From contig JAGCXI010000035.1 in assembly GCA_017961365.1 (NCBI GenBank), forward strand, positions 1-56,466: a stretch of DNA of 56,466 nt, read 5' to 3'. A program made the translations under genes and the position numbers. This DNA comes from Clostridia bacterium (GTDB lineage Bacteria; Bacillota; Clostridia; Christensenellales; CAG-1252). The notes beneath the pieces were generated by a model. The model worked only from the letters and a program-made list of their open reading frames with translations, was not told the DNA's origin and did not search any database. Below are positions 2,572-15,175 of this stretch, in pieces (positions within the stretch are counted from its first letter, which is position 1; every line of letters starts with the position of its first letter).

Positions 2572-4340
2572 GCCTTCTCCACGATAACGACGCGATCATG
2601 CCCTTCGAGGTCCCGCAGGACCGTACCGCCGCCGAAGATCTCCTTCACGGCTTCCGCTTGATCCCATCCGATCTCCACAAAGAGCTTGCCGCCTTCCGCA
2701 AGATGCGGCGCGACGCTCTCTTTTATCTTCCTGTAATAATCCAGCCCGTCCTCCCCGCCGTCCAAAGCAAGGCGCGGCTCTTTCCGAACCACCGCGTCCA
2801 AAGCGTCGACGGTCTCGGAGGGGATATAAGGCGGATTCGCCGTGATGACGTCGAACGCTCCTTCGACGGACGCGAAAAGATCACTCTTCACGAAGATGAC
2901 ATTCGCGCCGAGCGCCTCCGCATTCTCTTTCGCAAGCGCAAGGGCTTCTTCGCTGATATCCGACGCCGTGACGGAGGACCCCCTCTTCAAAGCGAGCACG
3001 ACGGCGATGGCGCCGCTCCCCGTGCAAATATCCAATATCTTCTCTTCCGGATTCGGCTTGAGACCGAGCACGGCTTCCACGAGCACTTCGGTGTCCCCGC
3101 GGGGAATAAGCGCGCGAGCGTCCGTCTTCATCTTCACGCCGTAAAACTCCGTTTCGCCGAGCACGTACTGCATCGGCTCGCCGTCGCGAACGCGACCTGC
3201 CGCCGCCACGACTTTCTCTTTCGCCGCGCTCGGAACGCTCTCCAAGAGCGGGAGCTCACTTCGCGAGACGCCGAGATAATATGCGAAAAGCCAGTCCGCG
3301 ACGGTCTCCGCTTCTTCATTCCCTTTCAAGATCGAGAGCACTTCGTGCCGCGCGAGCTTATAATCCTTCGTGATATTGAAATCCCTCGTCGGGATCGTGG
3401 GATCCGCATCCATCTCCTGCACGGTCTTGAACGCCGTCAGAGAGACCTCCAGCATGGAATCATCCGGCTCCCTCGTCGTCAACCTTTGGAAAAGAAGCCC
3501 GGGCGTCTTGAGGACGCGCACGAAAGCATTGTCAAACTTCGCAAGGAACTTCAAGACCTCATAAGACACCCCCGCCACGACGGGAAGGAGCGCAAGCCTC
3601 GTCACGAAACGCAGCAGGAAGGAGAGCATGCCCTTATACTGATCGAAGGTGGGCAAAAACGCCGTGATGATCAAGCTGACAAAGACCGTGATGACGAGAA
3701 AACTCGTCCCGCAACGGTCATGCACGCGCGGCATTCTGCGCGCATTCTCCACCGTGAGCGCTTCGCCCTGCTCGAAGCAGGAGATCACTTTATGCTCCGC
3801 GCCGTGATACATAAAGACGCGTTTGATATCCTTCATACAAGAGACAAGGATGAGATACCCGAGAAGCACGACGAGACGCACCGCGCTCATAATGAGATTT
3901 TTCCAGACATAGAAAATATTCTCAAATCCGGGGATAAGATCGAGGAGCTTCACCACGCCGACAGGCAAGGCGATGAAAAGCCCGATCGCGAAAAGCACGC
4001 CGAGCAGGACGCCGATCACGATCGCAACGTCTACGGCGCTCTTCCCGCTTTTTCCCGCGAGCCAATAATCGAAACGCGTGGGCTCGCTCTCCTCTTCCCC
4101 ATAGACCTCCGCGGAACGCGTGAGGACTTTGGAGCCGACGATCATCATCGAAAAGAAACTGATGAAGCCGCGAAGCACGGGCACTTTCATCCACCATTTC
4201 TTCTCCTGCGAAATGCGAGCGGATTCGACTTCTATCCTGCCGTCGGGCGTGCGAACCGCCGTGGCGACGCTGCGCTCACCGCGCATCATCACCCCTTCGA
4301 GCACCGCTTGTCCGCCGATCTTGGAAACGAATTTTCTCAT
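2556..4340 (-). CDS. prmC: DUF1385 membrane domain fused to release factor glutamine methyltransferase PrmC/HemK
   Basis: N-terminal [27 protein letters not shown] (DUF1385); C-terminal [24 protein letters not shown] (PrmC). Start moved to ATG 4340 (GAGG upstream). Confidence 0.9.
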
Positions 4341-4425
4341 CTTACCTCTCTTCCGCCGCAACGCTTCGGATGACGGCGGGGACTTATGCAAAGAGCCTCC
4401 GAAAGGTCCTTCGTATAATAATAAC

Positions 4426-4456
4426 AAAAAATGCGTTGCCTTTTTTCAACAACGCA
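4426..4456 (-). terminator. Intrinsic terminator after rpmE
   Basis: TGCGTTG/CAACGCA stem followed by T6 on minus strand. Confidence 0.65.
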
Positions 4457-4466
4457 CTTCGTTTAC

Positions 4467-4676
4467 TTATTTATTCCTGCCATAGCGGTTGTTGAACTTT
4501 TCGACTCTGCCGCCGGTATCCACGAGCTTCTGCTTGCCCGTAAAGAAGGGGTGGCACTTATTGCAGATATCAACGGAGATGACATCCGTCTTCTTCGTCG
4601 TGCCGGTCTCGAACGTATTACCGCAAGCGCATACAACTTTCGCTTTTCTGTACTCGGGATGGATAGACTCTTTCAT
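4467..4676 (-). CDS. rpmE: 50S ribosomal protein L31, zinc-binding type
   Basis: [29 protein letters not shown]. Confidence 0.97.
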
Positions 4677-4714
4677 GATTGCGTTACCTCGTAATAATAG
4701 CTTTATGTACTGTC

Positions 4715-4743
4715 ATTATACTTATCTCCTTCTTTTAAGTCAA
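4715..4743 (-). promoter_or_regulatory. sigma-A promoter of rpmE
   Basis: TTGACT-17-TATAAT on minus strand. Confidence 0.8.
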
Positions 4744-4842
4744 CGATTTTTCGGCATAAATTCGAATTTATTTCAATAAATTAAGAATTCTCCGCCTTTT
4801 TCGGAGGTCGAAGAGAAAGAAAAGCTCGTCGCAAAAACAGGA

Positions 4843-7176
4843 TCAGAAGAGAAGACGGAAATACGCGCCAAAGTACTTCAGCATATTTTGGATGATGAAA
4901 AGCAGACAAACGGAAGCCACAGCCGCCACGAGAAGGGCGGAAAGCGCAATGACGGCATTTTCAAAGAAAATGATCTTCCTCTTCTCCGAAACGCTCGCGC
5001 CGACTTGCGCCAAAAGTCGAAACTCCCGTTTGCGATCGCGATAAGACGCCAAAGCGTTATTCGCATAGCCGAGGAAGGCGAAGATTACCACGAGCACGTC
5101 AAGCAAGATCAAAACGCGGATATAGGCATTCGCCGCTTCGACATAAGAAGAAAAGAGCTCGACGAAACGGACGACGAAAGCCGAACGCGAATATTTCTCG
5201 GCGAGATCCTGCGTGACCGTCTCTGCGGAAACTTCCGCAAGACAGGCATTCTCCTTGATTCCCAAGCCGGAGAGATCGGTGAAAACGATGGCGAGCGGCG
5301 TATCGAGATAAGAAGCGACCGTAAAGACGGTCTCCACTCCTCCGACTTCCAAAAGGATCGGATCCCCGACGGAGACCCCCGCCTGCATCGCCAATCCCCT
5401 GCCGATGGCAAGACGACGCTCGCCTCGCACGGAAGATACGTCGAGATCAATGGATCCGACGTCCATCGCCACGGCGAAATCCTCGGCGCGGAGCGCGACC
5501 AGCGTCACTTGGCGCGTCCCTTGCGCAAGGGAACATTTTTGCTCGATATAAGCAAGATACGTCTCTTTGACCCCCTCTTCCGCCACGACCTCGGAGCGAA
5601 TGGCTCTGACGTCTTCGGACTCCGCCGAGATCACGACGTCGGCGCGGAAAAGCCGCTCCAAAGAAGAGAGCTGCGCAGCCGTTTTCCCGGAGATCGTCGC
5701 CACCGAAATGACCACCGTAAGCGCGATGACGAGAAGACGCGCGCCGGACTGCGCATGCCGATTCTCCCTTGCGCCCGCCGCCGCGATATAGAGGGCGCCG
5801 ACCGCGCTTTTTTCGGAAAAACGCATTATGAGAGCATTCGCGCCCTTTATCAAAATCGGCATGACCGCGAATAAGAGAGCAAAGAGCGCAATCGCCGCAA
5901 GGATGCCGGACGCCAAAGCTGCCGAGACCGAAGACAAGGCGCTCCAAAGAAAGAGAGCGACAAAGAGTCCGCCCGTGATCAAAACGGGTAAAACCTGCGG
6001 CTTGCGAACGGAGGAAGAGGACTGCATCATTTCATAAAGAGGCATCTTCCCCACCCGCCAAACGGGGATAAAAGCGGAAAGCAATGCGAGCAATACGCCG
6101 AAGAGGACGCCGAGAGACGCCGTGCCGAAGGTGATCGAGACAGGCGCGCTCGCCGTACCGATCATCAAATTCATCAACGCGGCAACGCCGTAACTCGCCG
6201 CGACGCCGAGAAGGCTTCCGAGCACGGCATAAAGCGCGATCTCCGCGAAAAGATAGAAGAAAAGAGCGCCGGACGACGCGCCTACGCTACGGAAAAGCGA
6301 CGCCAGCGAAAGGCGATTCTTCATCACGAGCGTCACCGCCGTATAGATCAAAATGACGCCGAGAACGGCGACAAGCCCGACAAGCGCGAAAAGCACGGTG
6401 CTTTCATATCGAAGAGTGGTAGCGAGCGCTTCTTCATTGACGGGAGAGGCAAAAGTAAAAGAGGGCGCAAGGCGTCCCAACGTCGCCGCGATCTCCTTCT
6501 CCGCTATGCCGAGCGCTTCTGTCTTTTCTTCGGACAGTTCTATAAAAAAGCGATTTCTGATCCTCACGTCTTCCGGCATGGAAAGTAGCCTTGCCGTCAC
6601 CGTGTCGCTGAGGAGGATATCCGCTTGCAAAAAGGGGCCGCTCTCCTCCGCAATCCCCACGACTTCCACCGTGGACTTTCTCTCGGATCCATAGACGGAA
6701 AGCCCCATCCGATCCCCCGTTTTCACCCCGATCTTCTCCGCAAAGGCGGCGCGCAAGATGACGCCCGTCGCTTTTGAAGAAACGCCGCCGGAGACAAACT
6801 TGCAGTCATTATACTTGAAAAGATCGGAAATGTCCGTCGAATACGCGCGAGCAAAGCTCTCCGTCCCGCCCGTCGCGGTCAGATAAGAATAATAACCGGA
6901 ATGTAAGGTCCCGTAGGCTTCCGTCTTCTCGCGAAGCGTGCGATACTCGGCGGAGTCCTCCGTCGTATAATAAGCGGAAAAAGCATCGGAAAAAGAAGCC
7001 TCCAGAGCGCATTCACCCGCAAGCGCGCGGTAAGACGCCGTCTCCCTTTTCTCCACGGAAACGCGCAGAGAAAATGCGGCGACAAAGACCGCGACGGCAA
7101 GCAAGACCGTCGCGACGATCAAGATGGGCTCCCCCACCTTGCGCTTCACGGAACGCAAAAGGCTTCTTACAAACAT
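4843..7176 (-). CDS. ABC transporter permease, MacB/FtsX family
   Basis: Two FtsX-like halves (LFRSVGAS; RKREFRLLAQVGAS), many TM helices, two large extracytoplasmic loops; overlaps ATPase stop. Confidence 0.85.
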   Translation of the reverse strand: MFVRSLLRSVKRKVGEPILIVATVLLAVAVFVAAFSLRVSVEKRETASYRALAGECALEASFSDAFSAYYTTEDSAEYRTLREKTEAYGTLHSGYYSYLTATGGTESFARAYSTDISDLFKYNDCKFVSGGVSSKATGVILRAAFAEKIGVKTGDRMGLSVYGSERKSTVEVVGIAEESGPFLQADILLSDTVTARLLSMPEDVRIRNRFFIELSEEKTEALGIAEKEIAATLGRLAPSFTFASPVNEEALATTLRYESTVLFALVGLVAVLGVILIYTAVTLVMKNRLSLASLFRSVGASSGALFFYLFAEIALYAVLGSLLGVAASYGVAALMNLMIGTASAPVSITFGTASLGVLFGVLLALLSAFIPVWRVGKMPLYEMMQSSSSVRKPQVLPVLITGGLFVALFLWSALSSVSAALASGILAAIALFALLFAVMPILIKGANALIMRFSEKSAVGALYIAAAGARENRHAQSGARLLVIALTVVISVATISGKTAAQLSSLERLFRADVVISAESEDVRAIRSEVVAEEGVKETYLAYIEQKCSLAQGTRQVTLVALRAEDFAVAMDVGSIDLDVSSVRGERRLAIGRGLAMQAGVSVGDPILLEVGGVETVFTVASYLDTPLAIVFTDLSGLGIKENACLAEVSAETVTQDLAEKYSRSAFVVRFVELFSSYVEAANAYIRVLILLDVLVVIFAFLGYANNALASYRDRKREFRLLAQVGASVSEKRKIIFFENAVIALSALLVAAVASVCLLFIIQNMLKYFGAYFRLLF

Positions 7177-10830: not shown

Positions 10831-11805
10831 TCAGCACCGAATGATGATCTTCAGATAATTATTCTCGCTGTCCGCCGCTTCCGTGAAAGCCTCCGGAGCA
10901 CCGAGAAAATCCACCGTCTTATCCACGAGATCATCCACTTTCACCACTTCATTCGCAAGAAGATTGATGGCGGCGTCCATATCGGAAGCGCCGTTATTGA
11001 TCCCAACGACGGAGAGCTGCCTGCCCATAATGGCGGAGATGTCCGCATTCAGCTTGCCGATGAAAGTATCATAGCCGACGATGCCGACTTTGCCCCCTTC
11101 CTTCGTAAGCGAAAAAGCGAGCTGAGGCTGCTGGGAGGAGCGGCATTCGAAGATCGTGCAATCCGCCATCTTGCCGCAAGTGATCTGCTTGATGCGACGA
11201 GCGGCGTCCTGCTTGGAAGAATCGATGCGATAATAGATGCCGAATTCTTCCGCGGCGGCGAGACGCTTCTCGGACTTATCGATGATGATGGGGATGGCTT
11301 GATAATAGATGGCGAGCTGCGCAAAGATGAGCCCCAAGGCGTTCGCGCCCAAAATGGCGACGTACTGCTCGTGCTTGAGATCCAGCTTATCCGTCAGCCC
11401 CGCGGCGATGCCGACATACTCGGCGAAAACGCCCATATCTTCCGTAATGCTTTCGGGAAGAGAATAGACGCATTCCTCAGGCACGACGACAAAATCCGCG
11501 AGATAACCGTCCGTATCCACGCCCATGATCTTCAAGCGTCCTTTCGCATCCTTCATATAAGGAGAAAGCAACACTCTCTCTCCTTTGCGGAAACGGCTGT
11601 CTTCATTCGCTTCGCTGATAAAGCCCGTGGCGATACGTCCCGGGGTGATGGGCAATTTCGCTTTCTCAGAGCCTTCGTAAACGGCGACATCCGCGCCTGT
11701 GAGCCCGAGCTTCGTGACTTTCACTTTTACGTGACCGGGGCGAAGCTCTCCCGTGACTTCCTCCATGGAAAGCGCGCCGGGCGCCGCTATCTTCCAAACT
11801 TTCAT
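10831..11805 (-). CDS. Medium-chain dehydrogenase/reductase (sorbitol/threonine DH-like) lacking Zn ligands
   Basis: GroES-like N-domain plus Rossmann fold (ILGANALG, GGKVGIVG); CxSD and GHE motifs replaced. Confidence 0.8.
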   Translation of the reverse strand: MKVWKIAAPGALSMEEVTGELRPGHVKVKVTKLGLTGADVAVYEGSEKAKLPITPGRIATGFISEANEDSRFRKGERVLLSPYMKDAKGRLKIMGVDTDGYLADFVVVPEECVYSLPESITEDMGVFAEYVGIAAGLTDKLDLKHEQYVAILGANALGLIFAQLAIYYQAIPIIIDKSEKRLAAAEEFGIYYRIDSSKQDAARRIKQITCGKMADCTIFECRSSQQPQLAFSLTKEGGKVGIVGYDTFIGKLNADISAIMGRQLSVVGINNGASDMDAAINLLANEVVKVDDLVDKTVDFLGAPEAFTEAADSENNYLKIIIRC

Positions 11806-11833
11806 AGCACTCCTTTGCCTTTCGGCAAGAGAG

Positions 11834-11862
11834 ATTATACCACGTTCTCCTCGAAAAGTAAA
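11834..11862 (-). promoter_or_regulatory. sigma-A promoter of MDR gene
   Basis: TTTACT-17-TATAAT with extended TG. Confidence 0.65.
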
Positions 11863-11965
11863 GTATTCCTCCCTGCGAAAAGCGACGCCGCGCGCTTCTC
11901 TTTTTTCATAAAGATCCTCACGCCGCCGCGAAGCGGAGAAAAAGCCGCCGCCCGGCGGAAAAATA

Positions 11966-11974
11966 TGATATAAT
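11966..11974 (+). promoter_or_regulatory. Extended -10 promoter at the putative IS110 left end
   Basis: TGATATAAT; no recognisable -35. Confidence 0.6.
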
Positions 11975-11980
11975 AAAGGT

Positions 11981-12081
11981 GCGCTCCCGCGATCCGGTTT
12001 TTTTCAATACCTAACGCTTGTCGTTTTTACAGGAGGATACGGCGCGGGAGCGTATGCGGCGGAGATTTTCGCCGCATTTTT
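11981..12081 (+). ncRNA. Candidate IS110-associated structured RNA (bridge/seek RNA-like or attenuator leader)
   Basis: Begins 7 nt after the -10; stem GCGCTCCCGCG (11981-11991)/CGCGGGAGCGT (12043-12053); then terminator hairpin ATGCGGCG/CGCCGCAT plus T-tract. Confidence 0.5.
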
Positions 12082-12110
12082 ATCAAAAAAAAACAAAGGA
12101 GGAAAAGAAA

Positions 12111-13313
12111 ATGATATACGTGGGAATAGACGTAGCGAAGGACAAACACGACTGCCACATCGTGCGGGAGGACGGCGAGATCCTTTTGGATAATTACACC
12201 TTTCAAAACGACTCGGAGGGATTTTCGGCGTTTCGGGAGACGGTGAAGCGCCTGCGCAAACGAAAGGAAGAAGTCAAGATCGGCTTGGAGCATACGGGGC
12301 ATTATTCGCAAAATCTCCTCTCCTTCCTAAAGGAAGAGGGCTATACCGTCATCGCCTTAAATCCTTTGACGGTGAATATGTACCGCAAGAGCAAGTCCCT
12401 TCGCAATACGAAGACGGACAAAAGCGACGCGCGCTACATCGCCGAAGTGACGGCGGAGACCGTCGTAGAAAAGAGGCGGCACGTTCTCGCCGACATCTAT
12501 ACACTGAAATCCCTGACGCGATACCGTTACCGCGTCTTAAAGACCCTCCAGACGATGAAGAACCGTTACCGCCGCGTCTTGCAGATCGTCTTTCCGGAAT
12601 TCGAGACCGTCTTCAACGTGAATTATAAGACCACCATCGACCTTCTCGTGAAATATCCTTCGCCGAAGGATATCCTGAAGACGGATAAAGAGGCGCTCGC
12701 AAAGAGTCTCGACAAGCTTTCGCACGGACATTACGGGAAGAAGACGGAGGCGCTCATCGACGCCGCCGCACACACCATCGGCGCGGCGAACGCGGGCGAC
12801 GCTTTCGAACTGAAACACCTCGCGAAACAGATCTCTTTCCTGCAAGAAGAAGTGGACGTCCTCGAGGAACGGCTGGAAACGATCCTTCGCCGCCTGCATA
12901 CGCCCATCCTCTCCATCCCCGGCATCGGGATCAGCACCGGCGCCGCCATCCTCGCCGAGATCGGAAATATCAAGAACTTCGAGACTCCTTCCAAGCTCCT
13001 TGCTTACGTCGGGAGCGAGCCCACGATCTATCAATCGGGCAAATACCTCCTCACCCGCACGCCGATGGTGAAGAAAGGCTCGAAATACCTCAGAAACGCC
13101 ATCTTCCAAGCCACCAAAGCCGCCTACATCACAGACCCCGTCATGCGCGCTTACATCGACAAAAAGCGTGACGAGGGGAAACATTTCTTCGTCGCCCTCT
13201 CGCACGGAATGAAGAAAATGACCCGCATCATCTTCGCCGTGCTGAAAAGCGGAAAAGACTACCAAGCGCCGAAAGGGACGGCGATAAACGCCGAATGCGA
13301 AACGGAAGATTAA
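12111..13313 (+). mobile_element. IS110 family recombinase/transposase (400 aa)
   Basis: DEDD residues in YVGIDVAK, GLEHTGHY, KTDKSD; IPGIG, LAEIG, YQSG catalytic Ser, KGSKYLR; AGGAGG RBS; element ends not resolved. Confidence 0.93.
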
Positions 13314-13342
13314 AAAACGCTACGATACACGCAGCGCTTTTT
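13312..13342. terminator. Imperfect hairpin between IS110 and flavodoxin
   Basis: AAAAACGCT...AGCGCTTTTT. Confidence 0.4.
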
Positions 13343-13358
13343 ATTTCTTCAAGGAAAA

Positions 13359-13805
13359 TCAGTCAAAGAAGACTTGCAATTTTTCCATTTCTTCAGGGTA
13401 TTTCTTCGGCTCTTTCAGGACGACGATCTTCGAGGAGGGAAACTCTTTTCCCAGCCGTTCGACCGCCTTTGGCGCCGCGCCGCCACCCGCATAGAGGACG
13501 AAGGAGAGTTCCTTCCCTTTCAAGGCTTCCAGCACCGAATTGATGGGAGAAGAGATCCTGCCATTCCAAACGGGAGAGCCGACGATCACTAGGTCATATC
13601 CTTCGAGAGAACTGTCCCATTCAAAGAGAGGATCCTTATGCTTGATCGCCGCCAAGAAACCGCCCGTCAGCATTCCCAAAAGGAAAGACTTCGGAAGGGG
13701 CTTCTTCGGGGTGACTTTGCGGATCTCCGCCCCCTTCTCGCGAAAGCGCTCCGCGACGAGATCCCCATTCCCCGTATAAGAATAATAAATAAAAAGCGTT
13801 TTCAT
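13359..13805 (-). CDS. Flavodoxin-like protein
   Basis: YYSYTGN FMN loop, YDLVIVGSPVW; GGAGG RBS before ATG 13805. Confidence 0.85.
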   Translation of the reverse strand: MKTLFIYYSYTGNGDLVAERFREKGAEIRKVTPKKPLPKSFLLGMLTGGFLAAIKHKDPLFEWDSSLEGYDLVIVGSPVWNGRISSPINSVLEALKGKELSFVLYAGGGAAPKAVERLGKEFPSSKIVVLKEPKKYPEEMEKLQVFFD

Positions 13806-13940
13806 AGTCCTCCTTCCGCCATGCGTGCGAACCACTCCGACAAAACGCACTCACGGGCGAAATCACGTTCTTCACATCATGCAATAATAATGAAAAAGAA
13901 CCCAACTAAAACCGCCAAAATATTTCCGCGCGAATGAAGA

Positions 13941-14045
13941 AGGGGGCAGATGCGAGGCTCGGCAAGCCTTGGCGAATGAGTGTACTTCTTGTACGTGATT
14001 TCGTCAAAGTGCAGACAGAAACAAAGCAAGTGGGTCGCCACCTCC
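13941..14045. repeat. Palindromic intergenic repeat (REP/MITE-like), copy A
   Basis: Core TGAGTGTACTTCTTGTACGTGAT 13977-13999 inside a hairpin; AGATGCGAG upstream. Confidence 0.65.
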
Positions 14046-14122
14046 CGTCAGCCCCCGCCCTTGGCGAGCGCGAACGCGCCATTGAGGTTCCCCGAAATAT
14101 CCATGGGGATGTGGGCGCGTAG

Positions 14123-14220
14123 AACGGTGTAGATACGAGCGCTCACCGAAGAGGCGGGTCTGAGCGTACTCCTTGTACGTGATGCCCGACGATGAGGCGT
14201 AGCGAAGTAGATGCGCCGTT
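14123..14220. repeat. Palindromic intergenic repeat (REP/MITE-like), copy B
   Basis: Core TGAGCGTACTCCTTGTACGTGAT 14161-14183 (21/23 identical to copy A); closing stem AACGGTGT/GCGCCGTT. Confidence 0.65.
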
Positions 14221-15175
14221 ATAGGCGCTCACCTTTAATGGCCAAGGCGAGAGCGCCATATAACCCCGCGTCATTCTTCAAAGCCGCAGCCAGCACTTTC
14301 ACCTTCGGATTCACCCCTGCGCCATAGAGGAGCGCATTCATCTTGCGCGAAACCTTCTTGATGAAATAATCCCCTTGATTACTGATGCCGCCGCCGATCA
14401 AAACGACGTCGGGGCGGAAGATATTCGCGAGAGAAGCGAGACCCTGCGCAACATAGGAAACATAATCCTTGATGACTTTCAAGCCCGCTTTATCCCCTGC
14501 TTTCGCCGCGTCGAAGGGAACGATGCCAGACTCGCCTTTCTCTTTCCAGAGGGAGGCGAGGAGACTATCGGGACGACGAGCTACCATACGCGCCGTCTGG
14601 CGGAGGAGCGCGCTTGCCGAAGCATACGCCTCGAAACAGCCGCGATTTCCGCAGGTGCAACGTTCGCCGCCCATTTTCAGCATAATGTGTCCGCCTTCCG
14701 CGCCTGCGCCGCCGACGCCCGTGATCATCTCGCCATTTGCGACGATACCCGTGCCGACGCCCGTGCCAAGGGTGACGAGGAGGACATTCGAGAGCCCTTT
14801 CGCCGCGCCGAAGAGCGCCTCTCCGAGCGCCGCGGCATTCGCGTCATTCTCCACGAAAACGGGGCAATCAAGATGCTTCCTTACGTCTTGAACGATGGGG
14901 GCATGCTCAAGCTTGATATTATTCGAATATACGATGACACCTTTCTTTCCGTCCACGGTGCCGGGCGTACCGATGCCCACCGCGCGGATCTCCTTCTCCG
15001 CGACGCCGATACGGGAAGCAAGCTCTTTGAGGAAACGCGCGATGCTCTCGCCCATCTCCGCGGAAGTGATGCCGTCCTTTGTCTTGAAACTGTCTTTTAC
15101 GAGGATCTCACCCTGCTCGGTGGCAAGGCAGCATTTGATGCTCATTCCTCCGACGTCTACACCTGCATAGATCAT
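14219..15175 (-). CDS. ROK family sugar kinase (glucokinase-like)
   Basis: GVDVGG, ENDANAAALGE, TLGTGVG, EGGH, CTCGNRGCFEAYAS; no HTH. Confidence 0.92.
   Translation of the reverse strand: MIYAGVDVGGMSIKCCLATEQGEILVKDSFKTKDGITSAEMGESIARFLKELASRIGVAEKEIRAVGIGTPGTVDGKKGVIVYSNNIKLEHAPIVQDVRKHLDCPVFVENDANAAALGEALFGAAKGLSNVLLVTLGTGVGTGIVANGEMITGVGGAGAEGGHIMLKMGGERCTCGNRGCFEAYASASALLRQTARMVARRPDSLLASLWKEKGESGIVPFDAAKAGDKAGLKVIKDYVSYVAQGLASLANIFRPDVVLIGGGISNQGDYFIKKVSRKMNALLYGAGVNPKVKVLAAALKNDAGLYGALALAIKGERL

What the first reader, a model, noticed from the sequence alone, without database searches (positions are those of the whole stretch)
11966..13342. IS110 recombinase with an unusually compact, self-terminated upstream RNA: a possibly domesticated RNA-guided system
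Seen: extended -10 (TGATATAAT) puts the predicted start at 11981, the first base of an 11-bp GC stem (11981-11991/12043-12053). The stem encloses one ~50-nt AU-rich domain and is followed by a terminator (12054-12081), then the RBS and a recombinase with all DEDD residues and the SG serine. Only 45 nt separate its stop from the convergent flavodoxin, and that gap has no TTGA-type -35. Known: IS110 recombinases use bridge/seek RNAs from the non-coding end with target- and donor-binding loops, and circularisation joins a right-end -35 to a left-end -10. Inference: this ~100-nt single-domain RNA could be a minimal or one-loop guide for an immobilised recombinase with a host function, or an attenuator limiting its expression.
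Basis: partly seen in the sequence, partly recalled or inferred. Interest (0 to 1): 0.72.

Follow-up and report, generated by a model that had tools for sequence, protein, structure and literature searches.

The report
One-loop bridge RNA with immobilised recombinase
A jumping-gene recombinase that has lost the RNA loop and the DNA ends it needs to move has been kept at one chromosomal spot across a genus of gut bacteria, together with the half of its guide RNA that reads a target site, so the host probably now uses it.

Summary
Window 12111-13313 encodes an intact IS110-family DEDD/Ser recombinase. It follows a ~100-nt RNA gene: extended -10 at 11966-11974, stem-loop at 11979-12055, terminator at 12056-12081.

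Relatives 38-55% identical carry a canonical two-loop bridge RNA, a ~130-nt right end with a TTGACT -35, and a left end starting at a -10. Covariance models show the window's RNA matches only their first, target-binding loop. The donor-binding loop and both element ends are gone.

All relatives at least 67% identical share this one-loop form and are one clade. There is exactly one copy in each of 11 of 14 genus genomes, always beside the same dehydrogenase gene, and its tree matches the host-gene tree. That implies one gain and two losses. dN/dS is 0.04-0.13, the catalytic residues are invariant, the RNA stems covary and the guide nucleotides are nearly fixed.

So this is an immobilised, vertically inherited, selected one-loop bridge system. 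Its function is not shown.

One lead: the guides match the ribosome-binding junction of hypervariable secreted-protein gene cassettes, which are multi-copy only in recombinase-bearing genomes. This support is partial and post hoc.

The parts
11966..11974 (+). Extended -10 promoter TGATATAAT of the RNA. TSS inferred near 11981.
   Evidence: TGnTATAAT/TATACT sits at the same place in 15 other orthologous loci. No -35 is needed with the TG extension (established knowledge). The TSS was not measured.
11979..12055 (+). Stem-loop homologous to the target-binding loop (TBL) of two-loop bridge RNAs. Outer stem 11979-11991/12043-12055. Inner helix 11994-11996/12040-12042. 5' loop strand ends in the left target guide CAATACCT (12005-12012, core CT at 12011-12012). 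Cap hairpin 12013-12025. 3' loop strand holds the right target guide ACAGGAG (12029-12035).
   Evidence: Fold. The two-loop model R1 matches 11982-12052 at model positions 7-76 of 157 (24.5 bits, E 0.0012). One-loop model R2 scores 127 bits. Covariation. The guide register was calibrated on relatives' insertion flanks.
12056..12081 (+). Intrinsic terminator (8-bp GC stem, 4-nt loop, U-tract) in the place where relatives have the donor-binding loop.
   Evidence: It is present, with compensatory changes, in the orthologues (helix 4 is 99% paired).
12098..12102 (+). Shine-Dalgarno GGAGG of the recombinase gene. There is no room for a separate promoter between the terminator and the RBS.
   Evidence: The RBS is conserved in the orthologues.
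12111..13313 (+). IS110-family DEDD/Ser recombinase, 400 aa, intact.
   Evidence: Pfam PF01548 + PF02371. NCBIfam NF033542 scores 211 bits against a cutoff of 140. Aligns to IS621 8wt6. dN/dS is 0.04-0.13 among orthologues, and 180 of 421 alignment columns are invariant, including the catalytic residues.
13314..13358 (.). 45-nt spacer to the convergent gene. It stands where a ~130-nt right end with a TTGACT -35 and a donor site would be.
   Evidence: Relatives' right ends. In orthologue L023 the two convergent ORFs overlap by 4 nt.
10831..11805 (-). Flanking Zn-dependent alcohol-dehydrogenase-like gene ('up324'), the conserved synteny anchor.
   Evidence: Pfam ADH_N + ADH_zinc_N. It lies on the same contig, 0.2-3 kb from the recombinase, in 11 of 11 recombinase-bearing genus genomes.
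13359..13805 (-). Flanking flavodoxin/FMN-reductase-like gene. It sits directly next to up324 in genomes that lack the module (empty site).
   Evidence: Pfam. Empty sites in G006 and G009.

Best explanation
This is a derivative of an IS110-type bridge-recombinase element that can no longer transpose and has been inherited vertically in one genus.

How it probably works:
- An extended -10 promoter drives a ~100-nt RNA. The RNA is the target-binding loop of an ancestral two-loop bridge RNA and ends at an intrinsic terminator.
- Read-through of that terminator gives the mRNA of an intact DEDD/Ser recombinase. The RNA element therefore also sets a high RNA-to-enzyme ratio.
- The donor-binding loop, the left-end junction -10 and the whole right end (-35 plus donor site) have been deleted. 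The canonical circle-and-insert cycle is therefore impossible.
- By inference, a recombinase dimer binds the RNA. The two loop strands read a ~12-nt DNA site, AATAC-CT-CCTGT in this genome. The 5' strand pairs with the bottom strand and the 3' strand with the top strand.
- Two such RNA-loaded dimers, each on a full or half-matching site, would synapse and exchange strands at the CT core, giving inversion or deletion between host sites.

What is shown: the homology of the RNA, the loss of parts, single copy, synteny, co-phylogeny and purifying selection. What is inferred: transcription, RNA binding, homotypic synapsis and the identity of the target.
For: RNA identity
- The two-loop model R1, built from 20 relatives, matches the window only at 11982-12052, model positions 7-76 of 157. 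This is its only hit in the genome at E<=10.
- The reciprocal one-loop model R2 hits 11 of 12 two-loop loci searched, in the five whose R1 match I compared (L034, L027, L056, L072, L037) at the first loop.
- The structure holds 89.3% of cells paired against 77.5% in shuffles (0 of 500 reach it). 18 of 25 pairs show compensatory change, and slid controls give 31-49% (the alignment is fitted to the model).

Lost parts
- Relatives of 38-55% identity have the full two-loop RNA: 30 of 31 loci, with the 31st cut by its contig end.
- They also have a right end ending TTGACT-N11-TAGTTAG|CT and a left end starting at GTATAAT.
- Here only 45 nt follow the stop.

Immobility and vertical descent
- There is one protein match in G000 and one in each of 10 of 13 other genus genomes.
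- There is exactly one R2 hit in each of these 11 genomes and none in the other 3.
- up324 is on the same contig in 11 of 11.
- The one-loop clade is monophyletic (15 rows, 90/100) with the two-loop locus L034 as sister. Its three sublineages match the up324 tree.
- Recombinase identity tracks identity of the neighbouring ROK kinase, r = 0.79 over 28 pairs.

Selection
- dN/dS is 0.041-0.132 in 12 pairs.
- D7, E60, D103, D106 and S309-G310 are invariant.

Guide conservation
- The left guide CAATACCT is identical in 15 of 16 orthologues, which go down to about 65% protein identity.
- By contrast, three mobile relatives with near-identical recombinases (branch lengths 0.013-0.039) carry three different guide pairs.

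Precedents for single-loop activity
- A TBL-only RNA is abundant and supports LT-guided top-strand transfer in CazIS110-1 (bioRxiv 10.1101/2025.10.25.684509, section 8 read).
- DBL-DBL recognition suffices for IS621 excision (bioRxiv 10.64898/2026.08.31.748434, abstract and highlights read).
- An 82-nt seekRNA suffices in an IS1111 element (PMC11187229, passages read).
Against: - No expression data exist for the RNA or the protein.
- All genomes are MAGs (71-97% complete). Copy number rests on assembly, and a trans-encoded donor loop in unassembled DNA cannot be excluded.
- The module was lost twice (the G006+G002 lineage and G009) with clean up324-flavodoxin or up324-ROK junctions. It is therefore dispensable.
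- In the one study that tested it, TBL-only RNA gave only one of the two strand transfers. [quoted passage not shown]
- The local neighbourhood is not static. A 2.7-kb insert lies between up324 and the RNA in G008 and G007. An extra gene lies downstream in G010. In G003/L053 both the module and up324 are flipped. Some residual recombination activity or mobility at the locus is therefore possible.
- No full-match target was found in most genomes.
Confidence: 0.72

Rival explanations
1. It is an ordinary, still mobile IS110 insertion sequence. Its presence at the same place in many species reflects repeated site-specific insertion, not descent.
For: - IS110 elements are strongly site-specific (PMC11208160).
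- Empty sites exist in G006 and G009.
- The upstream flank differs in G008 and G007, and the module is flipped in G003/L053.
Against: - There is no donor-binding loop in any of the 17 one-loop loci. R1 gives TBL-only or low-score stretched matches in 14, and nothing at E<=1 in 3.
- There is no right end. The spacer after the stop is only 45 nt in the window and absent in L023, where the convergent ORFs overlap by 4 nt; in other orthologues the downstream DNA differs and was not examined for a right end.
- There is one copy per genome in 11 of 11.
- The recombinase and host-gene trees agree.
- The flanks carry no match to the element's own guides.
- The G008/G007 'different context' is the same locus with 2.7 kb inserted.
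Confidence: 0.07
2. It is a decaying relic of a dead IS. The RNA stem-loop is only a leftover 5' leader that happens to terminate transcription, and neither RNA nor protein has a function.
For: - The module was lost twice without visible compensation.
- No target was proven and no expression data exist.
Against: - dN/dS is 0.04-0.13 at dS of 0.4 to above 2.
- The gene reads through intact in 10 of 11 genus genomes; in G010 one TGA falls within the match, and that ORF ends at 391 aa against 400 here.
- The catalytic residues are invariant.
- The RNA stems keep pairing through compensatory changes, while the loop strands are nearly invariant across about 65% protein identity.
- A relic would not show this pattern over genus-level divergence.
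Confidence: 0.08
3. The RNA is purely a cis-regulatory leader, for example an autoregulatory binding site plus attenuator. The recombinase is guided by something else, or acts without RNA as was long assumed for Piv.
For: - The terminator sits between the promoter and the gene, and there is no second promoter.
- The loop is conserved in sequence, as a protein-binding operator would be.
Against: - The conserved loop strands are exactly the positions that pair with flanking target DNA in mobile relatives. The right guide matches the flank in 3 of 3 loci and the left guide in 1 of 3 of the L027 group. In the L035 group the left guide matches at 6-8 of 8 positions in 3 of 3 loci.
- The distal right-guide nucleotides change by lineage into four variants, which a fixed operator would not do.
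- This rival is compatible with, rather than opposed to, a guide role.
Confidence: 0.12

Closest known systems
IS621/IS110 bridge-RNA recombination system (Durrant et al. 2024, PMC11208160; Hiraizumi et al. 2024, PMC11208158; passages read)
   Same: - The recombinase has the same architecture and catalytic residues.
- The RNA gene lies upstream of the recombinase gene behind a sigma-70-type -10.
- It has an internal loop whose 5' strand reads the bottom strand and whose 3' strand reads the top strand, around a CT core.
   Different: - It has one loop instead of two, about 100 nt against 150-250 nt.
- It has no donor-binding loop, no right end or junction promoter, and no mobility.
- Its guides are fixed across a genus rather than varying between elements.
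Two-loop elements of Clostridia MAGs, 38-55% identical (L034 is sister; L027/L036/L037; L035/L062/L063)
   Same: - They belong to the same recombinase subfamily.
- Their first loop has the same TAACGC...CGTT cap and GGAG-containing right guide.
- They target Shine-Dalgarno-like CTCC sites.
   Different: - They keep the donor loop (TTGATTAGTTAGATAACGC...), a left end of about 330 nt and a right end of about 130 nt with a TTGACT-17-TATAAT junction promoter.
- Many sit on 1.4-2.5-kb contigs typical of repeats.
TBL-only RNA of CazIS110-1 (Sun et al., bioRxiv 10.1101/2025.10.25.684509, abstract and section 8 read) and short seekRNA (Siddiquee et al. 2024, PMC11187229, passages read)
   Same: A single-loop RNA of about 80-100 nt carries both target-matching strands. 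It is bound by the transposase and is able to direct at least partial strand transfer.
   Different: Those RNAs are products of loci that also encode the full RNA and intact ends, and they serve transposition. Here the locus encodes nothing else, and the element does not move.
Piv invertase of Moraxella (Piv/MooV family; known to me from the literature and from passages in PMC11187229)
   Same: It is a chromosomal, host-serving DEDD/SG recombinase related to IS110-type transposases. It inverts DNA to vary a surface protein.
   Different: - Piv belongs to the short (315-330 aa) IS492/IS621 branch and sits beside its invertible segment.
- No guide RNA is described for Piv in the passages of PMC11187229 that I read; I did not search further.
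- The protein here is 400 aa, has a conserved guide RNA, and its candidate sites lie on other contigs.

Membership tests
IS110-family DEDD recombinase (protein) | N-terminal RuvC-like DEDD domain plus C-terminal Tnp domain | tested here: met
   PF01548 at 8e-39 and PF02371 at 1e-20. NF033542 scores 211 bits against a cutoff of 140.
IS110-family DEDD recombinase (protein) | Catalytic D-E-D-D and the Ser-Gly of the Tnp domain | tested here: met
   D7, E60, D103, D106 and S309-G310 align with IS621 D11, E60, D102, D105 and S241-G242. They are invariant in 15 orthologues.
Canonical bridge RNA | Target-binding loop: an internal loop with left and right target guides around a capping hairpin | tested here: met
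   R1 matches at positions 7-76. R2 hits the first loop of two-loop RNAs. Covariation.
Canonical bridge RNA | Donor-binding loop that matches the element's own joined ends | tested here: not met
   There is no match to R1 positions 80-157 in the window or the genome. A terminator stands in its place.
Canonical bridge RNA | Length of about 150-250 nt | tested here: not met
   About 101 nt from the inferred start at 11981 to the end of the U-tract at 12081. The range is taken from PMC11208160.
Canonical bridge RNA | Guides complementary to a real DNA target | tested here: inconclusive
   The register was calibrated on relatives. The best own-genome matches are 11 of 12 nt. One relative (G008) has 14 consecutive nt. 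Scan counts do not exceed the reversed-pattern controls.
Mobile IS110 insertion sequence | Right end with -35 and left end with -10 that form a promoter on circularisation | tested here: not met
   Relatives have TTGACT-17-TATAAT across the junction. Here the right end is absent.
Mobile IS110 insertion sequence | Several copies, or different loci in related genomes | tested here: not met
   One copy in each of 11 genomes, always next to up324.
Piv-type domesticated invertase | Adjacent invertible segment bounded by inverted recombination sites | tested here: not met
   I noticed no inverted pair of guide-matching sites in the 7-kb neighbourhoods, but ran no dedicated inverted-repeat search. 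The candidate sites are on contigs C8 and C68.
Piv-type domesticated invertase | Membership of the short IS492/IS621/Piv branch | not tested
   No Piv sequence was compared. Length (400 aa) and low identity to IS621 argue against membership.

The most novel reading that the evidence does not exclude
The one-loop RNA and its recombinase may form a natural RNA-guided DNA-rearrangement system working for the host. Loop-loaded dimers would pair homotypically on sites that share the left half-site AATAC-CT. These sites lie inside the ribosome-binding region of hypervariable secreted-protein genes. Strand exchange at the CT core would swap which gene cassette sits behind the single promoter-bearing expression site. 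That would be RNA-guided phase or antigenic variation.

Support
- The three G000 cassettes (C8 6718+, C8 8701-, C68 16260+) share an almost identical ~115-nt 5' block, although their mature parts are only about 35-50% identical.
- Across G000, G005 and G004, paralogue identity ends at AATACCT or just after it. That is the predicted core boundary.
- The G008 cassette carries 14 consecutive nt of the target predicted from the G008/G000 RNA.
- The basal lineage's guide (G007) predicts the ancestral expression-site sequence AATACCTCCTTAAA, which is seen in G006, G009, G005-C18 and G000-C68; G002 carries a variant, AATACCTCCTTATT.
- The family has 3 copies in G000 and 3 in G005. It has exactly 1 copy in each of 14 recombinase-free genomes of the family that have a match.
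- Contigs break at these repeats.

Against
- The site is RBS-like.
- The right-guide match is poor in G005.
- No cassettes are assembled in 6 recombinase-bearing MAGs.
- The lead was found post hoc.
Probability: 0.35. Interest if true: 0.92.

Novelty: new variant of a known kind. Interest (0 to 1): 0.76.

Why it matters
Bridge recombinases are known as parts of selfish insertion sequences and as engineered genome-writing tools. This would be a natural lineage in which the donor half of the system was discarded. The target-reading half has been kept under selection for genus-level time.

If correct, it would show three things:
- A single loop is enough for a biologically useful reaction.
- The system offers a minimal RNA (about 75 nt of structure) and a matching enzyme for testing homotypic or half-match recombination.
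- It gives the first RNA-guided counterpart of Piv-like host invertases.

It also shows how an RNA-guided transposon can be domesticated. If the cassette lead holds, it would link RNA-guided recombination to surface or secreted-protein variation in gut anaerobes.

Tried and rejected
- Rfam (evalue mode, window 11000-14500): only two sub-threshold chance matches outside the element.
- RNA evidence: no RNA holder was listed for window 11700-13500, so read laying could not be used.
- Earlier findings of this scan: three look-ups returned nothing. One call failed on a word limit and was re-sent shorter.
- Donor loop in trans: R1 over the whole genome gave only the known locus.
- Remnants of the element's own target in its flanks: a loose resemblance at 11863-11883 is not conserved in the orthologues. 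Rejected as chance.
- Genome-wide scans for lineage-specific predicted targets (16-mers, up to 2 mismatches) in 14 genomes. Hit counts equal the reversed-pattern controls. Apart from the G008 cassette and the G006/G009 expression sites, the 11 other hits whose context I read lie in unrelated coding regions or RBSs, for example a ribosomal-protein-like gene start in G010; 5 further hits in G006 and G009 were not examined.
- 'Context B' (G008, G007, L051, L058, L088) first looked like a second insertion site. It is the same locus with two genes inserted between up324 and the RNA.
- Pfam and NCBIfam gave no family for the cassette proteins.
- The MAFFT alignment A3 under-counts stem covariation because of indels. 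Per-sequence folds and a model-based realignment were used instead.
Full report
**Observation.**
- TGATATAAT lies at 11966-11974.
- A GC-rich stem runs 11979/11981-11991 with 12043-12053/12055 and encloses 51 nt.
- A hairpin plus T-run follows at 12054-12081.
- GGAGG at 12098-12102 precedes the ATG at 12111.
- The ORF 12111-13313 gives a 400-aa protein with the two IS110 domains (NCBIfam NF033542 at 211 bits against a cutoff of 140).
- D7, E60, D103, D106 and S309-G310 align with the IS621 catalytic residues D11, E60, D102, D105 and S241-G242 (residue roles from PMC11208158, passages read).
- Forty-five bases separate the stop from the convergent flavodoxin-like ORF at 13359-13805.
- The 137-nt leader folds at -47.9 kcal/mol with z = -3.5.
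- Rfam has no family for it.

**What the RNA is.** Loci encoding relatives were fetched from the genus, from species genomes and from metagenomes. They fall into two classes with no overlap.

Relatives of 38-55% identity have a ~190-nt upstream RNA with two internal loops. The first loop has the form GGTTCA...TAACGC..CGTT...GGAG...CC inside a long stem. The second is TTGATTAGTTAGATAACGC...CGTTTTAT...ACGAG.

A covariance model of 20 of these (R1, 157 positions) finds the full two-loop RNA in 33 of 57 further or training loci. This includes 30 of the 31 relatives at 38-55% identity whose upstream DNA is held. The 31st is cut by its contig end.

In the window R1 matches only 11982-12052, at model positions 7-76 (24.5 bits, E about 1e-3). 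The 17 one-loop loci behave as follows:
- 9 match within positions 4-79;
- 5 give low-score alignments (13-28 bits) stretched over the whole model, against 118-167 bits for true two-loop RNAs;
- 3 give nothing at E<=1.

The reciprocal model of the one-loop RNA (R2) scores 96-127 bits on 17 of 17 one-loop loci. It hits 11 of 12 two-loop loci; for the five whose R1 match I compared (L034, L027, L056, L072, L037) the hit lies at the first loop. The window's RNA is therefore the homologue of the first loop alone.

**That first loop is the target-binding loop.** In the near-identical elements L027, L036 and L037 the alignment of flanks places the left end at ...CT|C-GTATAAT and the right end at ...TTGACT-N11-TAGTTAG|CT. 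Joining the ends gives TTGACT-17-TATAAT, the junction promoter described for IS621 (PMC11208160, passages read).
- The reverse complement of the 3' strand of loop 1 equals the right flank in 3 of 3 elements (CTCCTTA, CTCCTTTC, CTCCCAT).
- The 5' strand equals the left flank plus CT in 1 of 3 (CATACCT in L037).
- In a second group (L035, L062, L063) the 5' strand matches the left flank at 6-8 of 8 positions.
- Loop 2 carries TAGTTAG, the right-end terminus.

This is the published geometry: the 5' strand pairs with the bottom strand over 8-9 nt, the 3' strand with the top strand over 4-7 nt, and the core is included in both.

**Structure.** All 16 distinct one-loop RNAs fold alike. Each has an outer stem of 9-13 bp with different sequences, a CCG/CGG helix, a 4-bp cap and a terminator. 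On the model-fitted alignment of 28 rows:
- 89.3% of cells pair, against 77.5% in column shuffles (0 of 500 reach it);
- 18 of 25 pairs show compensatory change;
- partners slid by 1-3 columns give 31-49%.

The caveat is that the alignment was fitted to the structure. The plain MAFFT alignment shows fewer compensatory pairs (5 of 24) because of indels in the stem.

**What is missing.** The donor loop is replaced by a terminator. The ~130-nt right end is absent, with 45 nt after the stop here. In L023 the recombinase and flavodoxin ORFs overlap by 4 nt. The first ~130 nt of the relatives' left end, with the junction -10, has no counterpart. R1 finds no second loop anywhere in the 1.40-Mb, 88%-complete assembly.

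**Immobilised and inherited.**
- G000 has one copy.
- Ten of the 13 other genomes of the genus have one each, at 67-97% identity.
- R2 finds exactly one RNA in each of these 11 genomes, directly upstream of the recombinase, and none in the other three.
- The dehydrogenase-like gene up324 is on the same contig in 11 of 11. It is divergent with a 230-385-nt spacer in 7, lies 880 nt away in G010, and lies 2.9 kb away with two inserted genes in G008 and G007. In G003 both it and the module are flipped.
- A ROK-kinase-like gene lies on the other side in 9 loci.
- G006 and G009 show up324 next to the flavodoxin gene with a ~190-nt spacer. G002 shows up324 next to the ROK gene.
- In a tree of 41 recombinases the 15 one-loop rows form one clade (90/100). 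It is nested in the two-loop family, with L034 as sister (84/99).
- The clade's three sublineages are {G008, G000, G001}, {G007} and {G013, G005, G004, G012, G011, G010, G003}. These are the lineages of the up324 tree. In that tree the recombinase-free G006+G002 are sister to G007, and G009 is sister to the large group (quick method, single gene).
- The simplest history is one gain in the genus ancestor and two losses.
- Recombinase identity correlates with ROK identity (Pearson 0.79, 28 pairs; Spearman only 0.38).

**Selection.** Pairwise dN/dS is 0.041-0.132 in 12 pairs, and one further pair is saturated. 180 of 421 alignment columns are invariant, including all catalytic residues.

The left guide CAATACCT is unchanged in 15 of 16 RNAs (CAATGCCT in L030). 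The right guide has four lineage variants: ACAGGAG in 7, ACGAGGAG in 6, ACGGGAG in 2 and AAGGAG in 1. By contrast, L027, L036 and L037 have almost identical recombinases yet three different guide pairs. Fixed guides fit a fixed host target.

**Candidate target.** The calibrated register predicts AATAC-CT-CCTGT(AA) for this genome. The best matches in G000 (11 of 12 nt, or 15 of 17) are the ribosome-binding junctions of three paralogous genes. Two are convergent on contig C8 (starts at 6718+ and 8701-, with the contig ending 54 nt beyond the second start). One is on C68 (start 16260).

Features of these genes:
- They encode proteins with an invariant 30-residue N-terminus and mature parts only 31-64% identical, even between species. 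They have no Pfam or NCBIfam family.
- Within G000 the three share an almost identical ~115-nt block, from the RBS to just past the signal sequence.
- Across G000, G005 and G004 the identity among paralogues ends at AATACCT or up to 5 nt beyond it. This is the predicted core boundary.
- One copy per genome (G000-C68, G005-C18) keeps the upstream region that the single-copy genes of G006, G009 and G002 have (AATACCTCCTTAAAC...).
- The G007 RNA, basal in the clade, predicts that same sequence.
- In G008 a cassette start carries 14 consecutive nt of the target predicted from its RNA.
- In the whole family the gene is single-copy in all 14 recombinase-free genomes that have a match. It has 3 copies in G000 and 3 in G005.

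Results against the lead:
- The site is the complement of a Shine-Dalgarno plus spacer. The 10-mer AATACCTCCT occurs 8 times in G000, including once inside the recombinase gene at 13042-13051.
- Scans with the lineage-specific 16-mers give no more hits than reversed controls. Of the remaining hits, the 11 whose context I read are unrelated; 5 in G006 and G009 were not examined.
- The right-guide match is weak in G005 (5 nt) and imperfect in G004.
- Six recombinase-bearing MAGs have no assembled cassette.
- The lead was found by looking at the top hits, so it is post hoc.

I rate it at about one in three.

**Mechanism.** Shown: the anatomy, the homology, the losses, the inheritance and the selection. 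Inferred: the RNA starts near 11981 and ends at the terminator, and read-through makes the recombinase mRNA. The RNA would load a recombinase dimer and read a ~12-nt site.

IS110 active sites are composite between two dimers (PMC11208158). Catalysis therefore needs a second loaded dimer, which here can only carry the same loop.

Homotypic or half-match reactions have precedent:
- A TBL-only RNA is about ten-fold more abundant than full bridge RNA in CazIS110-1. It supports the LT-guided top-strand transfer but not the second transfer.
- DBL-DBL recognition suffices for IS621 excision in a cell-free system (abstract and highlights).
- An 82-nt seekRNA supports movement of an IS1111 element.

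**Comparison and novelty.** Six literature searches (and the find in 10.64898/2026.10.21.760802) returned no description of a natural locus that encodes only a target-binding loop, lacks element ends and is vertically inherited. bioRxiv supplements could not be read and might hold such cases among 'deviating' covariance models.

The closest host-serving relative is Piv. The closest RNA analogues are TBL-only RNA and seekRNA. I file this as a new variant of a known kind. The protein is a member of the IS110 recombinase family. The RNA is a partial member of the bridge-RNA family, with the target loop present and the donor loop tested and absent. The locus is not a mobile IS.

Noticed in passing
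G000 contigs C8:6600-8755 and C68:16150-17300 (loci L096, L097); relatives L099-L117: A family of hypervariable secreted proteins with an invariant 30-aa N-terminus. The copies share an almost identical ~115-nt 5' block within a genome. Convergent gene pairs occur in G000 and G005. There is a single copy in every recombinase-free genome of the family that has a match. Contigs break at the repeat.
   Followed up: partly
L022/L025/L055/L058/L088 upstream of the RNA; G008:C83, G007:C22: In two lineages a ~2.7-kb insert lies between up324 and the RNA gene. It holds a Cys/His-rich ~740-aa protein and a ~135-aa protein, next to a CCCCCTCCCCC...GGGGTGGGG palindrome.
   Followed up: partly
L026 (G003) and L053: The RNA-recombinase block and the up324 gene are each flipped in place relative to the other genomes (order: ROK+, flavodoxin+, RNA, recombinase+, up324-). 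This needs two inversions that share the breakpoint just upstream of the RNA promoter.
   Followed up: partly
L005/L024 and L006/L029 downstream of the recombinase; L008/L030 upstream: Copies of a ~35-nt palindromic repeat (GCGGAGAGTG...GCTCCGC-like) flank the module in several genomes. It may be a REP-like element.
   Followed up: no
L039:2602-2677: A two-loop relative has an extra target-loop-like copy (R1 positions 4-79, 31.5 bits) about 140 nt upstream of its full bridge RNA.
   Followed up: no
window 13042-13051: The 10-mer AATACCTCCT, which is the left guide plus the start of the right target, occurs inside the recombinase gene, just after the codons for the catalytic Ser-Gly. It is probably chance.
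   Followed up: no
L027:2640-3000, L036, L037 (alignment A1): Two-loop relatives have a left end of ~330 nt with two promoters: a junction -10 at the very end and an internal GATATAAT before the RNA. A 50-nt inverted repeat lies between them. The elements sit at Shine-Dalgarno-like CTCC sites.
   Followed up: partly
L030 (G010) 4242-5534 and L026 79-1248: An extra ~430-aa gene of unknown family lies next to the module in the G010/G003 lineage, downstream in one genome and upstream in the other.
   Followed up: no
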